A DNA stretch of 64,000 bases, taken from NCBI RefSeq assembly GCF_009931435.1, contig NZ_CP043414.1; one strand, 5' to 3'. The notes beneath the pieces were generated by a model, which searched no databases, had not been told where the DNA came from, and worked only from the letters and a program-made list of their open reading frames with translations. The DNA is from Escherichia coli (GTDB lineage: Bacteria; Pseudomonadota; Gammaproteobacteria; Enterobacterales; Enterobacteriaceae). Of the stretch, positions 11,601 to 13,641 are shown piece by piece (the stretch's first letter is position 1; every line of letters begins with the position of its first letter). Made by a program: the position numbers and the translations under genes.

Positions 11601-11611
11601 ATCCTGGATAA

Positions 11612-11650
11612 AAAAATCCCCGCGACACGGCATGTCGCGGGGAAAAAAAT
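11612..11650 (-). terminator. Intrinsic terminator for bhsA in the convergent ldtC/bhsA gap
   Basis: Hairpin ccccgcgacacggcatgtcgcgggg flanked by A7 on both sides of the + strand, giving a U-run after the hairpin on the minus transcript. Confidence 0.6.
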
Positions 11651-11682
11651 CAGCAGTAGCAGGCATTAATGAGGGTTAATGC

Positions 11683-11940
11683 TTATTTATAAATTACTGC
11701 TGTTCCATGGAGGGTATTCGGACCGGTTACAGAAGTAATACGGAAAGATTTTGCGCCCATCTCATCCGCTTTTTGCGCCAGCTGCTCTTCCAGCGATCCC
11801 AGATTTGTCCCCGCGTTAGCACTGATAGTACCGACTTTTTGTTGGCCTTCTGGCGTTGACTGAACTTCGACAGCCGCAAAGCTGGCAAATGACATTGAGC
11901 TTAAAATCGCCGCAGCGATGAGGGTTTTTACGTTTTTCAT
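11683..11940 (-). CDS. bhsA: Multiple stress resistance / biofilm protein BhsA (YcfR)
   Basis: 85-aa secreted YhcN/BhsA-family ORF MKNVKTLIAAAILSSMSFASFA... Confidence 0.88.
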   Translation of the reverse strand: MKNVKTLIAAAILSSMSFASFAAVEVQSTPEGQQKVGTISANAGTNLGSLEEQLAQKADEMGAKSFRITSVTGPNTLHGTAVIYK

Positions 11941-12180
11941 AATAGTGGCCTTATGCAGATGAATGACGTCGCAAGCAATTACTTAACGATCGATAACTAA
12001 ATGATAGATGTGATCTGGATCACATACAAGATATTTTTTATAACAATCATTAATTAATTTAAAAATCTTTAAATTTCAGTTAAATAGAAAGCAATTATTT
12101 TTATGGTTTGTGGACTGGTGAACGGAGGTGATTATTTTTATAATAACCTTTCATTCACAGTCACCAGGTACAACGGCATC
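11941..12180. promoter_or_regulatory. Divergent bhsA/comR promoter region (expected ComR operator)
   Basis: 240-bp AT-rich intergenic region between divergent bhsA and comR; the operator itself is not pinpointed. Confidence 0.4.
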
Positions 12181-12813
12181 ATGGCAACTGACTCAACACA
12201 ATGTGTAAAAAAAAGCCGTGGCCGCCCAAAAGTGTTCGACAGGGATGCCGCGCTTGATAAGGCCATGAAATTGTTCTGGCAGCACGGTTATGAAGCGACT
12301 TCTCTTGCGGACCTCGTCGAAGCGACCGGAGCCAAAGCGCCCACGCTATACGCGGAATTTACCAACAAAGAGGGGTTATTCCGCGCCGTACTCGACCGCT
12401 ATATCGATCGTTTTGCCGCTAAGCATGAAGCACAGCTGTTTTGTGAAGAGAAAAGCGTGGAGTCTGCGCTGGCTGACTATTTTGCTGCCATCGCCAACTG
12501 CTTTACCAGCAAAGACACCCCGGCTGGCTGCTTTATGATCAACAACTGCACCACCCTCTCCCCGGATTCCGGAGATATCGCCAATACGCTGAAATCACGC
12601 CATGCGATGCAAGAGCGCACTTTGCAGCAGTTTTTATGTCAACGACAAGCGCGCGGGGAAATCCCGACCCACTGTGATGTGACGCATCTGGCTGAATTCC
12701 TTAATTGTATTATTCAGGGGATGTCGATCAGCGCACGCGAAGGTGCATCGCTGGAAAAACTGATGCAGATTGCCCGAACGACTTTGCGTTTATGGCCCGA
12801 ACTGGTGAAATAA
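12181..12813 (+). CDS. comR: TetR-family copper-responsive repressor ComR (YcfQ)
   Basis: N-terminal TetR helix-turn-helix; start at internal ATG (MATDSTQCVKKSRGRPK) gives 210 aa. Confidence 0.85.
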   Translation: MATDSTQCVKKSRGRPKVFDRDAALDKAMKLFWQHGYEATSLADLVEATGAKAPTLYAEFTNKEGLFRAVLDRYIDRFAAKHEAQLFCEEKSVESALADYFAAIANCFTSKDTPAGCFMINNCTTLSPDSGDIANTLKSRHAMQERTLQQFLCQRQARGEIPTHCDVTHLAEFLNCIIQGMSISAREGASLEKLMQIARTTLRLWPELVK

Positions 12814-12819
12814 GGCGCA

Positions 12820-12853
12820 AAAAAAAGCCCCTCAGCCTGAGCGAATGGGGGGC
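12820..12853 (-). terminator. Candidate terminator in the comR/ycfJ convergent gap
   Basis: A8 run followed by hairpin agcccc...gggggct; on the minus strand the hairpin is followed by U8. Confidence 0.45.
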
Positions 12854-12875
12854 TAAATTGCAGAATACAGCCTTG

Positions 12876-13415
12876 TTATACTTTGTTATTCAAAATCAGT
12901 TGCCCGTTGCCATCTAACGGGATCTGCGTACCCGGATCGCGGTCCATGCGGATTTTGCCCTGCTGATCGCCAATCTTATAGGTCACATCATAACCGAGCA
13001 TTTTTTCTGACTTGTCATACACCGTTTTACAACGCTGTTGCGTAGTCGTGTAAGTATCGCTTTCCTGGAGAGAGCCCTGGATCTGGTTACCGGCATAGCC
13101 ACCTCCCAGCGCCCCCACAACAGTGGCGACATCTTTACCGCGACCACCGCCAAACTGATGCCCTATCACGCCGCCAGCAACAGCGCCGAGCACCGACCCG
13201 GTAATGCGATTTTCATCCTGCACCGGTCGACGATGGGTCACTGTGACGTTGCGACACTCCTGACGCGGTGTTTTAACCGTTTCCTTGATTGGGGTTGCAG
13301 AAACAACCTGAGCGTATTGCGGGCCACGTTCAAACACGTTCAGACTGGCCACTGCCGCTACGCCCAACGCAGCTGCGACACCAATCCCCATACCCGCCAA
13401 CATTGATTTATTCAC
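12876..13415 (-). CDS. ycfJ: Glycine-zipper (17-kDa surface-antigen-like) membrane protein YcfJ
   Basis: Gly-rich segments GAVAGGVIGHQFGGGRG and VVGALGGGYAG; start placed at GTG 13415 with a strong SD (aaggagg, 7-nt spacing), giving 179 aa; ATG 13403 is the alternative. Confidence 0.8.
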   Translation of the reverse strand: MNKSMLAGMGIGVAAALGVAAVASLNVFERGPQYAQVVSATPIKETVKTPRQECRNVTVTHRRPVQDENRITGSVLGAVAGGVIGHQFGGGRGKDVATVVGALGGGYAGNQIQGSLQESDTYTTTQQRCKTVYDKSEKMLGYDVTYKIGDQQGKIRMDRDPGTQIPLDGNGQLILNNKV

Positions 13416-13540
13416 GGGAACACCTCCTTCTTTGCTGTTATGCCAATCATGCAAGTGAAGGAGAAAAGCAGCTATCAGACAGAAGATGAAAAGCGCGGGA
13501 ATGGCTGGAAATACTTAGGGATTCGGAGGAGTCTGAAGGA

Positions 13541-13630
13541 ATGCCTGATGCGACGCTTAACGCGTCTTATCAGGCCTACCGCTCGTACCATTTGTCCAGG
13601 GCGGATAAGGCGTTTACGCCGCATCCGCCA
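13541..13630. repeat. REP/BIME element between ycfJ and ndh
   Basis: gcctgatgcgacgcttaacgcgtcttatcaggcctac plus ggcggataaggcgtttacgccgcatccgcc. Confidence 0.7.
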
Positions 13631-13641
13631 GTACAAGCCGA

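What the first reader, a model, noticed from the sequence alone, without database searches (positions are those of the whole stretch)
11601..13641. bhsA-comR divergent pair with neighbouring ycfJ: compact envelope/copper stress module
A TetR-family repressor (comR) is divergently transcribed from the small secreted stress protein bhsA across a 240-bp AT-rich region, with the glycine-zipper membrane protein ycfJ convergent downstream. The operator and the ligand-sensing logic can be approached from sequence here.
Basis: partly seen in the sequence, partly recalled or inferred. Interest (0 to 1): 0.3.

Follow-up and report, generated by a model that had tools for sequence, protein, structure and literature searches.

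The report
Known E. coli bhsA–comR stress switch
This is the already described E. coli pair of a small stress protein gene (bhsA) and its TetR-type repressor gene (comR); the eye-catching perfect palindrome between them is a CRP site, and the likely ComR operators are different, very highly conserved repeats beside it.

Summary
bhsA (11683-11940, -) and comR (12181-12813, +) diverge across a 240-bp, 31% G+C spacer, and ycfJ (12876-13415, -) converges on comR. The sequence is E. coli chromosome, present in 5,421 of 5,426 complete genomes. The pair, ComR repression of bhsA and CRP binding in the spacer are all published, so this is not new.

What the tools add:
- The one perfect palindrome (TGTGATCTGGATCACA, 12009-12024) is a consensus CRP site, bound by CRP in published ChIP-seq. 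It is not a TetR operator.
- A different motif centred on CGATCG recurs. O1 (11977-12002) is nearly invariant in 72 of 72 Enterobacteriaceae spacers. O2 is at 12040-12053. A weaker O3 overlaps comR's -10.
- O3 survives in genomes that lost bhsA, so the motif travels with comR.
- O1, CRP and O2 keep fixed spacing around an inferred sigma-70 bhsA promoter, with the CRP site filling the promoter spacer.
- ComR's nearest solved relative is CifR, crystallised on a 26-bp operator.
- ComR Cys117 is family-wide. Cys88, Cys107, Cys176, His82 and His141 are ComR-specific candidate metal or thiol sensors.

ycfJ shows no link to the pair.

The parts
11611..11710 (-). sRNA BhsB (b4832), derived from the bhsA 3' end and 3' UTR; includes the terminator hairpin
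   Evidence: Annotated as ncRNA bhsB in K-12 RefSeq. The window is 99% identical over this stretch. It folds at -37.1 kcal/mol, z = -5.9. The hairpin loop CCCUCA is conserved across genera.
11617..11643 (-). Intrinsic terminator of bhsA/BhsB (12-pair G+C-rich stem followed by a T run), lying between the convergent ldtC and bhsA genes
   Evidence: Terminator scan and RNA fold.
11683..11940 (-). bhsA (comC/ycfR) CDS, 85 aa, DUF1471 protein with an N-terminal signal-peptide-like segment
   Evidence: ORF list; NCBIfam BhsA equivalog 137 bits against cut-off 90, and Pfam PF07338; RefSeq annotation.
11955..11963 (-). Conserved block GCAGATGAA (TTCATCTGC on the bhsA strand) in the bhsA leader just upstream of the Shine-Dalgarno sequence; function unknown
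   Evidence: Mean pairwise identity 0.84, against 0.48 for the neutral proxy; alignment.
11977..12002 (.). O1: 26-bp imperfect palindrome with core TTAACGATCGATAA (11983-11996), centred at 11989/11990. Proposed main ComR operator, overlapping the inferred bhsA transcription start (centre about +5.5).
   Evidence: The core matches at least 10 of 14 positions in 72 of 72 spacers. Core identity is 0.99. The palindromic consensus is ATTwAC-TTAACGATCGATA-GGTAAAT. It is the best match to the motif in the whole 64-kb window. The nearest solved homologue, CifR, was crystallised on a 26-bp operator. Binding by ComR is inferred, not shown.
12001..12006 (-). Inferred bhsA -10 hexamer TATCAT (TAT[C/G/T]AT in 57 of 72 spacers); predicted start at about A11994
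   Evidence: Conserved -10 scan; hexamer counts. No experimental start site could be consulted.
12009..12024 (.). CRP site TGTGATCTGGATCACA, occupying the spacer between the inferred bhsA -35 and -10 (centre about -22.5)
   Evidence: It is the only TGTGA-N6-TCACA match in 64 kb, where 0.06 is expected. Exactly this sequence is listed as a CRP ChIP-seq target 'ycfQ/bhsA' in ETEC (PMC4287617). Half-site identities are 0.98 and 0.88, while the centre is 0.44, which is neutral. A RegulonDB-derived table has CRP and ComR sharing one operon.
12024..12030 (-). Inferred bhsA -35 (TTGTAT with a 17-bp spacer in Escherichia; TTGACG with an 18-bp spacer in 59 of 72 spacers)
12034..12039 (-). T6/A6 tract at about -40 to -45 of the inferred bhsA promoter; candidate proximal UP-element subsite
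   Evidence: Identity of block 12035-12044 is 0.87. The position relative to the promoter is inferred, and the UP consensus is recalled from established knowledge.
12040..12053 (.). O2: second copy of the CGATCG-type motif (ATAACAATCATTAA in E. coli; the perfect palindrome ATAACGATCGTTAT/A in other genera), centred 57 bp from O1 (about -52.5)
   Evidence: Matches at least 10 of 14 positions in 67 of 72 spacers. The distances CRP-to-O2 (30 bp, 65 of 72) and O1-to-CRP (27 bp, 63 of 72) are fixed.
12116..12121 (+). Inferred comR -35 (TGGTGA; the TGG is conserved)
   Evidence: The CTGG block has identity 0.96; hexamer list.
12139..12144 (+). Inferred comR -10 TATAAT (A-11 and T-7 invariant in the 72 aligned spacers), with predicted start at about 12151
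   Evidence: It is retained in genomes that lack bhsA.
12140..12153 (.). O3: third motif copy overlapping the comR -10 and start (ATAATGATCGTTCA in other genera; degenerate in E. coli, ATAATAACCTTTCA, 8 of 14). Proposed auto-operator.
   Evidence: It matches 10-11 of 14 positions in the four genomes that lost bhsA, O1, O2 and the CRP site. Negative autoregulation of comR was reported by PPTP-seq.
12181..12813 (+). comR (ycfQ) CDS, 210 aa, TetR-family repressor of the CifR-like subfamily
   Evidence: Pfam TetR_N and TetR_C_13. PDB CifR matches at E = 2e-32. AF2 model pLDDT 91.9, and TM-score 0.86 to CifR-DNA complexes.
12818..12854 (-). Intrinsic terminator of ycfJ (AGCCCC...GGGGCU hairpin plus U8) in the 62-bp comR-ycfJ gap
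   Evidence: RNA fold of 12805-12885 on the minus strand and direct reading of the sequence.
12876..13415 (-). ycfJ CDS, 179 aa (GTG start), glycine-zipper 2TM protein; a neighbour, not shown to belong to the unit
   Evidence: NCBIfam PRK11280, 324 bits; Pfam PF05433. Synteny is variable.
13539..13634 (.). REP elements between ndh and ycfJ
   Evidence: Sub-threshold naRNA4 matches on both strands; I take naRNA4 to be REP-derived from my own knowledge. Parts of the query match a median of 3 places per genome.

Best explanation
This is the chromosomal E. coli bhsA(comC/ycfR)-comR(ycfQ) unit: a TetR-family repressor gene and its divergent target, which encodes a small DUF1471 envelope stress protein.

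My reading of the 240-bp spacer is as follows. bhsA is driven by a sigma-70 promoter with -35 at 12024-12030, -10 TATCAT at 12001-12006, and a start near A11994. Three protein sites at fixed spacing control it:
- A 26-bp palindrome centred on CGATCG (O1, 11977-12002) lies over the start site.
- A consensus CRP site (12009-12024) fills the spacer between -35 and -10.
- A second CGATCG-type site (O2, 12040-12053) lies at about -52.

I infer that O1 and O2 are ComR operators. I infer that a third, weaker copy over comR's own -10 TATAAT (O3, 12140-12153) gives negative autoregulation. ComR bound at O1 (and O2) would block RNA polymerase. Inducers such as copper and other thiol-reactive stresses would release it, probably through cysteines or histidines of the ligand domain. 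cAMP-CRP sitting in the promoter spacer would add carbon-state control, most likely repression.

Shown here or in the literature: gene identities, conservation and spacing of the sites, CRP occupancy in vivo, ComR repression of bhsA, and copper release in vitro. Inferred: which sequence ComR contacts, the transcription starts, the sign of CRP's effect, and the sensing residues.

ycfJ is simply the next gene in a conserved ldtC-bhsA-comR-ycfJ-ndh neighbourhood.
For: Identity:
- The stretch is 100% identical to E. coli chromosomes that annotate comR, bhsA and ycfJ.
- Family scans agree.

Literature:
- ComR represses comC/bhsA and is released by copper (summaries of Mermod 2012).
- A review places the ComR site about 60 bp upstream of comC. 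O1 spans 37-62 bp upstream of the ATG.
- CRP ChIP-seq lists exactly TGTGATCTGGATCACA for ycfQ/bhsA.
- CRP and ComR share one operon in RegulonDB-derived tables.
- ComR is negatively autoregulated.
- With copper, comR rises 2.2-fold and bhsA 13.8-fold.

Comparative evidence from 72 spacers across about 25 genera:
- O1 core identity is 0.99, and the CRP half-sites are 0.98 and 0.88. The CRP centre is 0.44 and fourfold-degenerate sites in comR are 0.48.
- The motif TTAACGATCGTTAA matches at least 10 of 14 positions at O1 in 72 of 72, at O2 in 67 of 72, and at O3 in 14 of 72. In total there are 166 hits against 15 in shuffles.
- Spacing is fixed: O1-to-CRP 27 bp (63 of 72), CRP-to-O2 30 bp (65 of 72), O2-to-TATAAT 93 bp (57 of 72). 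The O1-to-ATG distance varies from 49 to 57 bp.
- The bhsA promoter reads TTGACG-18-TAT[CGT]AT in most spacers.
- In four genomes that lost bhsA, O1, the CRP site and O2 are gone. comR keeps TATAAT and the overlapping ATAATGATCGTTCA.

Protein evidence:
- The nearest solved structure is CifR bound to a 26-bp operator, the same length as O1.
Against: - No experiment that I could read maps ComR's contacts. The primary paper (Mermod 2012) was not available.
- ChIP-exo of tagged YcfQ found only three weak peaks, none at this locus.
- Within the single E. coli sequence, palindromy of O1 or of the CRP site is not significant against shuffles of this AT-rich spacer (P = 0.06-0.18). The case therefore rests on conservation.
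- O2 (11 of 14) and especially O3 (8 of 14) are degenerate in Escherichia, yet autoregulation was reported in K-12.
- Transcription starts are inferred from hexamers only. A published SELEX paper guessed different hexamers.
- A CRP site at -22.5 is not a standard activating position, so the sign of CRP control is a guess. The report that ycfQ rises under glucose limitation is not explained by my geometry.
Confidence: 0.75

Rival explanations
1. The perfect palindrome TGTGATCTGGATCACA (12009-12024) is itself the ComR (TetR-type) operator, possibly shared with CRP.
For: It is the best palindrome in the spacer (8 of 9 pairs). It is conserved. It lies 69-84 bp upstream of the bhsA ATG, not far from the 'about 60 bp upstream' quoted in a review. 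I could not read the primary paper.
Against: - It matches the CRP core 10 of 10, the only such match in 64 kb.
- It is a listed CRP ChIP-seq target.
- Its conservation profile (half-sites fixed, central 4 bp neutral at 0.44) is CRP's.
- It disappears together with bhsA, while comR keeps a CGATCG-type box on its own promoter.
- It would leave the 0.99-identical O1 core with no binder.
Confidence: 0.12
2. O1, O2 and O3 are conserved for reasons other than ComR binding. They could be sites of another, unidentified factor, Dam/SeqA-related GATC elements, or simply promoter elements such as -10, discriminator or UP sequences.
For: - No direct binding data exist, and YcfQ ChIP-exo missed the locus.
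- O2 and O3 share a T-tract plus TATAA[C/T] that looks like promoter sequence.
- All three GATC sites of the E. coli spacer lie inside O1 and the CRP site.
- H-NS is flagged at this spacer.
Against: - The shared core is a dyad (perfect ATAACGATCGTTAT in several genera), which points to a dimeric helix-turn-helix protein.
- The motif accompanies comR when bhsA is lost.
- The arrangement fits a type-I TetR regulator with published repression and autoregulation.
- O1 is 26 bp, like the CifR operator.
- I know of no other E. coli factor with this consensus; this rests on my own knowledge and was not tested.
Confidence: 0.13
3. bhsA, comR and ycfJ form one three-gene envelope/copper stress module.
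For: Adjacency ldtC-bhsA-comR-ycfJ-ndh is kept in Escherichia, Salmonella, Enterobacter and many others. Both BhsA and YcfJ are small envelope proteins.
Against: - ycfJ is convergent with comR and has its own terminator.
- It lies downstream of ndh on the same strand, behind REP elements.
- No operator-like motif lies upstream of it.
- A siderophore-receptor gene or about 0.4-0.5 kb of extra DNA separates it from comR in several genera.
- No paper I read links ycfJ to ComR or to copper.
Confidence: 0.07

Closest known systems
ComR (YcfQ)-ComC (YcfR/BhsA) of E. coli K-12 (Mermod et al. 2012, Biometals 25:33)
   Same: It is the same locus. The spacer is identical to K-12 except at 4 positions. 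ComR is 99% identical to the RefSeq ComR cluster. The genes are annotated as such.
   Different: Nothing biological differs. What this analysis adds are inferred details: a 26-bp operator centred on CGATCG in two or three copies, a CRP site in the promoter spacer, and a ComR-specific Cys/His set.
CifR of Pseudomonas aeruginosa (TetR family; PDB 6NSM, 6NSN, 6NSR, bound to a 26-bp operator)
   Same: - It is the best sequence match (E = 2e-32) and the best fold match (TM-score 0.86).
- It shares the P-x-G-C motif: ComR Cys117 aligns with CifR Cys107, the residue changed to Ser in 6NSM.
- It is a divergently encoded repressor (abstract).
- Its operator is 26 bp, like O1.
   Different: Sequence identity is only about 33%. 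The target genes differ (the cif epoxide hydrolase operon versus bhsA), as do the inducers (epoxides versus copper and other stresses). ComR has extra conserved Cys88, Cys107, Cys176, His82 and His141 that the wider family lacks. I could not compare the operator sequences.
NemR of E. coli (TetR-family sensor of electrophiles and HOCl through a cysteine; PDB 4YZE)
   Same: Both are TetR-fold E. coli repressors; NemR appears in the fold search at rank 28. The comparison is a working analogy only: cysteine chemistry rather than a classical small-molecule pocket. It is consistent with bhsA induction by thiol-reactive agents such as HOSCN and Cu.
   Different: NemR is a distant relative (19% identity in the fold alignment). 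NemR's mechanism is recalled from my own knowledge. No cysteine of ComR has been tested.
Type-I TetR regulators with divergent targets (TetR-tetA, AcrR-acrAB, QacR-qacA)
   Same: The regulator and target genes diverge across a short spacer that holds palindromic operators overlapping the promoters (classification quoted).
   Different: Here a global regulator site (CRP) is embedded between the -35 and -10 of the target promoter and flanked by the two putative operators at fixed distances. The target is a small envelope protein rather than an efflux pump.

Membership tests
TetR-family transcriptional repressor (ComR) | N-terminal TetR-type helix-turn-helix domain | tested here: met
   Pfam PF00440 at E = 1e-15, residues 25-70. 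In the AF2 model, helices at residues 21-35, 42-49 and 53-60 precede the ligand domain.
TetR-family transcriptional repressor (ComR) | All-helical C-terminal ligand/dimerisation domain | tested here: met
   Pfam TetR_C_13 at 35.3 bits, cut-off 27. The model has pLDDT 91.9 and nine or ten helices. TM-score to CifR is 0.86.
TetR-family transcriptional repressor (ComR) | Palindromic operator in or near its own or its target's promoter | tested here: inconclusive
   Conserved dyads centred on CGATCG are found at O1, O2 and O3. Binding by ComR is inferred, not measured.
TetR-family transcriptional repressor (ComR) | Inducer-dependent release from DNA | not testable with these tools
   Literature only: copper releases ComR in vitro (reviews of Mermod 2012).
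ComR/BhsA orthologous pair of Enterobacteriaceae | BhsA equivalog score above the curated cut-off, and comR adjacent and divergent | tested here: met
   NCBIfam NF047859 scores 137.4 bits against cut-off 90. The divergent arrangement is seen in 72 of 80 loci. RefSeq names agree.
cAMP-CRP binding site | Match to TGTGA-N6-TCACA with conserved half-sites and a free centre | tested here: met
   10 of 10 core positions match, unique in 64 kb. Half-site identities are 0.98 and 0.88 against 0.44 for the centre. 42 of 72 orthologous sites match 10 of 10, and 27 match 9 of 10.
cAMP-CRP binding site | Occupancy by CRP in vivo | not testable with these tools
   Literature: the ETEC H10407 CRP ChIP-seq table lists this exact sequence for ycfQ/bhsA.
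Direct copper metalloregulator | Stoichiometric Cu(I)/Cu(II) binding by defined ligand residues | not testable with these tools
   A 2024 review states that direct Cu binding by ComR has not been reported. Candidate ligands (C88, C107, C117, C176, H82, H141) are conserved in 94-100% of 81 orthologues.
Three-gene bhsA-comR-ycfJ module | Co-transcription, or a regulatory site shared with the pair | tested here: not met
   ycfJ is on the opposite strand to comR and has its own terminator. The 3-mismatch window scan found no O1-type motif between 13416 and 13641.
Three-gene bhsA-comR-ycfJ module | Tight conserved linkage of ycfJ to comR | tested here: inconclusive
   ycfJ is adjacent in many genera. 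It is displaced by about 0.4-0.5 kb in Kosakonia and others, and separated by a TonB-receptor gene in Citrobacter and Lelliottia.

The most novel reading that the evidence does not exclude
The bhsA promoter is a fixed-geometry three-site lock. Two ComR dimers or dimer pairs sit on 26-bp operators centred on CGATCG, at +5.5 and -52.5. They bracket a CRP dimer that sits inside the -35/-10 spacer, so that CRP-induced bending and ComR act together, a reverse of the CytR-CRP sandwich. ComR is then not a copper-specific sensor but a thiol or thiophilic-stress sensor. It would combine the family-wide Cys117 (equivalent to CifR Cys107) with ComR-specific Cys88, Cys107, Cys176, His82 and His141. That would explain why bhsA responds to Cu, Hg, HOCl, HOSCN and more.
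Probability: 0.3. Interest if true: 0.4.

Novelty: already known. Interest (0 to 1): 0.2.

Why it matters
The locus itself is textbook-level E. coli annotation, so the finding ranks low.

The practical value of this re-examination is a warning and a set of hypotheses. The warning is that a search for 'the conserved palindrome' in this spacer would wrongly take the CRP site for the TetR operator.

The hypotheses are ready to test:
- Exact operator candidates O1, O2 and O3.
- A promoter map that explains how ComR and CRP both act on bhsA.
- A possible basis for the disputed ComR autoregulation: the auto-operator is strong in most genera but eroded in Escherichia.
- A short list of ComR-specific Cys/His residues for the still open question of what ComR actually senses.

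Tried and rejected
- Reading Mermod 2012 directly: the paper is not held.
- Published ChIP-exo for YcfQ: it gave only three weak peaks (cspA, metR, uxuA), none at this locus. I fetched those coordinates from NC_000913.3, but they refer to an older genome version and landed inside ghrB, yigL and fimH. I dropped this line.
- Generic promoter and terminator scan: counts were no better than shuffles. It missed both the conserved bhsA promoter and the ycfJ terminator.
- The repeat finder did not report the CRP palindrome because its arms are short.
- Single-sequence palindrome statistics were not significant in this AT-rich spacer.
- Rfam gave only sub-threshold hits, from terminators and REP elements.
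- The plasmid search returned only mislabelled chromosomal pieces, with no sign of mobility.
- The search for homologous proteins returned only close orthologues of at least 72% identity. It therefore could not supply distant comR loci for operator covariation.
- The AF2 model was confident, but its coordinates are not exposed. Cys-Cys and His distances could not be measured.
- I looked for a plus-strand promoter at a canonical CRP activation distance (-41.5, -61.5 or -71.5) for comR. I found none convincing.
- Sigma-E and class-II CRP readings of the bhsA promoter were considered by eye and rejected for poor hexamer matches.
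Full report
**1. What is there**

The window is E. coli chromosome. The stretch 11601-13641 is 100% identical to several complete E. coli genomes whose RefSeq annotation names bhsA, comR and ycfJ. It is present at 80% coverage or more in 5,421 of 5,426 complete genomes.

The ORF list and family scans confirm the three genes:
- bhsA, 11683-11940 (-), 85 aa. NCBIfam BhsA equivalog 137 bits against a cut-off of 90; Pfam YdgH_BhsA-like.
- comR, 12181-12813 (+), 210 aa. Pfam TetR_N and TetR_C_13.
- ycfJ, 12876-13415 (-), 179 aa from a GTG start. NCBIfam PRK11280 324 bits; glycine zipper 2TM domain.

The spacer 11941-12180 is 240 bp and 30.8% G+C, against 51.5% for the window.

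**2. What is already known**

- ComR (YcfQ) represses the divergent comC/bhsA/ycfR gene and is released from its promoter by copper in vitro. This is Mermod 2012, which I could read only through reviews (the paper itself is not held).
- A review places the ComR site 'about 60 bp upstream' of comC.
- A 2024 Chem Rev review notes that direct Cu binding by ComR has not been reported.
- CRP ChIP-seq in ETEC lists exactly TGTGATCTGGATCACA as a target between ycfQ and bhsA.
- RegulonDB-derived tables show CRP and ComR sharing one operon.
- PPTP-seq reports negative autoregulation of comR, contradicting the earlier claim.
- With copper, comR rises 2.2-fold and bhsA 13.8-fold.
- bhsA also responds about 15-fold to HOSCN and belongs to seven iModulons.
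- ChIP-exo of tagged YcfQ found only three weak peaks elsewhere.

**3.

I fetched 80 loci encoding ComR relatives (68-98% identity) from species-representative genomes. In 72 of them bhsA and comR diverge across 238-250 bp.

Alignment of the spacers shows sharply bounded conserved blocks. The neutral yardstick is fourfold-degenerate sites in comR, with mean pairwise identity 0.48. Against it:
- The O1 core (11983-11995) scores 0.99.
- The CRP left and right half-sites score 0.98 and 0.88.
- The 4 central bases of the CRP site score 0.44.
- The comR -10 block scores 0.89.

The conserved-palindrome criterion is therefore met, with a twist. The only perfect palindrome (12009-12024) is a 10 of 10 match to the CRP core. 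It is unique in 64 kb, where 0.06 is expected. It has CRP's conservation signature and a published CRP ChIP peak. It should not be read as the TetR operator.

**4. The candidate ComR operators**

O1 is a 26-bp imperfect dyad. The consensus is ATTwAC-TTAACGATCGATA-GGTAAAT. The E. coli version is AATTACTTAACGATCGATAACTAAAT (11977-12002), with 10 of 13 symmetric pairs.

Scanning all spacers with the idealised 14-mer TTAACGATCGTTAA finds matches of at least 10 of 14 at three aligned positions:
- O1 at 11983, in 72 of 72.
- O2 at 12040, in 67 of 72. It is the perfect palindrome ATAACGATCGTTAT/A in several genera and ATAACAATCATTAA in E. coli.
- O3 at 12140, in 14 of 72. It overlaps comR's TATAAT. 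The strongest versions read ATAATGATCGTTCA; the E. coli version is degenerate at 8 of 14.

In total there are 166 hits against 15 ± 3.5 in shuffles. In the whole window the best match is O1, and three of the ten hits with 3 or fewer mismatches fall in this spacer.

A natural experiment supports the assignment to ComR. In four genomes that have lost bhsA (L058, L063, L072, L073), ldtC abuts comR. O1, the CRP site and O2 are gone. comR keeps ATTATTTTTATAAT and the overlapping ATAATGAT[C/T]GTT[C/T]A box, at 10-11 of 14. So the motif travels with comR, while the CRP site belongs with bhsA.

Kosakonia species carry two bhsA-comR pairs, and both have the full O1-CRP-O2 set.

**5. Architecture**

Distances between sites are nearly invariant:
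- O1 centre to CRP centre is 27 bp (63 of 72).
- CRP centre to O2 centre is 30 bp (65 of 72).
- O2 centre to the comR TATAAT is 93 bp (57 of 72).

The distance from the bhsA ATG to O1 floats between 49 and 57 bp.

On the bhsA strand, a sigma-70 promoter is conserved around the CRP site. The -35 is TTGACG in 59 of 72 (CTTGTA/TTGTAT in Escherichia). The spacer is 18 bp and is the CRP 16-mer. The -10 is TAT[C/G/T]AT in 57 of 72, with the variable base at the least important position.

That predicts a start near A11994. It puts O1 at about +5.5, CRP at about -22.5 and O2 at about -52.5, with an A6 tract at -40 to -45 resembling a proximal UP subsite (inference).

For comR, the invariant TATAAT (12139-12144) with TGGnnn 17 bp upstream predicts a start near 12151, with O3 spanning -12 to +2.

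These starts are inferred. I could not consult experimental start-site data, and a SELEX paper guessed other hexamers. H-NS is also flagged on this spacer.

**6. Mechanism (best reading)**

ComR bound at O1, helped by O2, occludes the bhsA start and upstream contacts. Inducers release it. CRP in the promoter spacer most likely competes with RNA polymerase, so CRP would act as a repressor, but the sign is untested. O3 gives autoregulation. O3 is strong in most genera and eroded in Escherichia, which may be why the two E. coli studies disagree.

**7. Ligand logic**

The nearest solved structure is P. aeruginosa CifR, at E = 2e-32 by sequence and TM-score 0.86 to the AF2 model, which has pLDDT 91.9. 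CifR was crystallised on a 26-bp operator, the length of O1.

ComR Cys117 aligns with the CifR cysteine that is serine in the C107S crystal form. This P-x-G-C motif is family-wide, present in 123 of 124 sequences (ComR plus 123 homologues at about 30-55% identity), so it cannot by itself explain copper specificity.

What is specific to ComR orthologues is a further set of residues:
- Cys8 (93%), Cys88 (99%), Cys107 (98%) and Cys176 (100%).
- His82 (94%).
- His141 (99%), which replaces a family-wide Arg.

All but Cys8 lie in the ligand domain, in or between the helices at residues 63-86 and 167-186. Whether they cluster could not be measured, because the model coordinates are not exposed. This fits either a thiolate/imidazole Cu(I) site or a general thiol-stress switch. 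Both remain hypotheses.

**8. ycfJ**

- It is convergent with comR, 62 bp away, and has its own hairpin-plus-U8 terminator (12818-12854).
- It lies downstream of ndh on the same strand, behind REP elements.
- No O1-like motif lies upstream of it.
- Its adjacency to comR is broken by extra DNA in Kosakonia and relatives, and by an RhtA-like TonB receptor gene with a Fur-box-like sequence in Citrobacter and Lelliottia.

I find no support for including it in a functional module.

**9.

K-12 RefSeq annotates the sRNA BhsB (b4832) at the bhsA 3' end. In the window it is about 11611-11710 (-), 99% identical and strongly structured, with z = -5.9. Its hairpin loop CCCUCA is conserved across genera. 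It was first predicted from RIL-seq data (title).

**10. Verdict**

The system is already known. The new material is incremental: operator and promoter assignments, fixed geometry, and candidate sensing residues. It is all testable with simple experiments. Interest is low, at about 0.2.

Noticed in passing
window 11611-11710 (-): The annotated small RNA BhsB (b4832), derived from the bhsA 3' end and 3' UTR, lies inside the finding's coordinates but was not mentioned. It is 99% identical to K-12 and strongly structured (z = -5.9). Its hairpin loop CCCUCA is conserved across genera and is a likely seed region.
   Followed up: partly
window 13539-13634: REP-type repeats lie between ndh and ycfJ (sub-threshold naRNA4 matches on both strands). 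They explain why parts of the 2-kb query match several places per E. coli genome.
   Followed up: partly
L018 3331-5529 (also L005 and other Citrobacter/Lelliottia loci): In these genera an RhtA-like TonB-dependent siderophore receptor gene sits between comR and ycfJ. It is preceded by a Fur-box-like GATAATGAGACTCTTTATC (L018 about 3226-3244). L005 additionally has an IS200-like transposase ORF (3324-3782).
   Followed up: partly
L058, L063, L072, L073 (upstream of comR, about 2240-2500): Four genomes have lost bhsA together with O1, the CRP site and O2. ldtC then abuts comR, which keeps only its TATAAT and an overlapping ATAATGATCGTTCA-type box.
   Followed up: yes
L061/L077 (Kosakonia sacchari SP1) and L064/L080 (K. 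arachidis): These genomes carry two paralogous bhsA-comR pairs (ComR 75-76% and 68-69% identical to E. coli). Each keeps the full O1-CRP-O2 arrangement.
   Followed up: partly
window 11988, 12012, 12018: All three GATC (Dam) sites of the E. coli spacer lie inside protein-binding sites: one in the O1 core and two in the CRP site. Other genera add GATC in O2 and O3. Possible methylation-protection or methylation-sensitivity effects were not explored.
   Followed up: no
window 11955-11963: A conserved block GCAGATGAA (TTCATCTGC on the bhsA mRNA strand) lies in the bhsA leader just upstream of the Shine-Dalgarno sequence. Its identity is 0.84 in otherwise variable sequence, and its function is unknown (possibly an sRNA or translational control site).
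   Followed up: no
window 12054-12138: The 93-bp distance from O2 to the comR -10 is conserved in 57 of 72 spacers, although the intervening sequence is only 0.59 identical. Small conserved islands lie within it (TTTCA 12074-12078, ATA 12084-12086, TTATTTTT 12095-12102, CTGG 12115-12118). This suggests a phasing or architectural constraint that is unexplained.
   Followed up: no
window 11601-13641 versus E. coli genomes: Only 74 of 5,432 matching records are at least 99% identical over this 2-kb stretch; most are 95-99%. The window's strain therefore belongs to a minority lineage at this locus.
   Followed up: no
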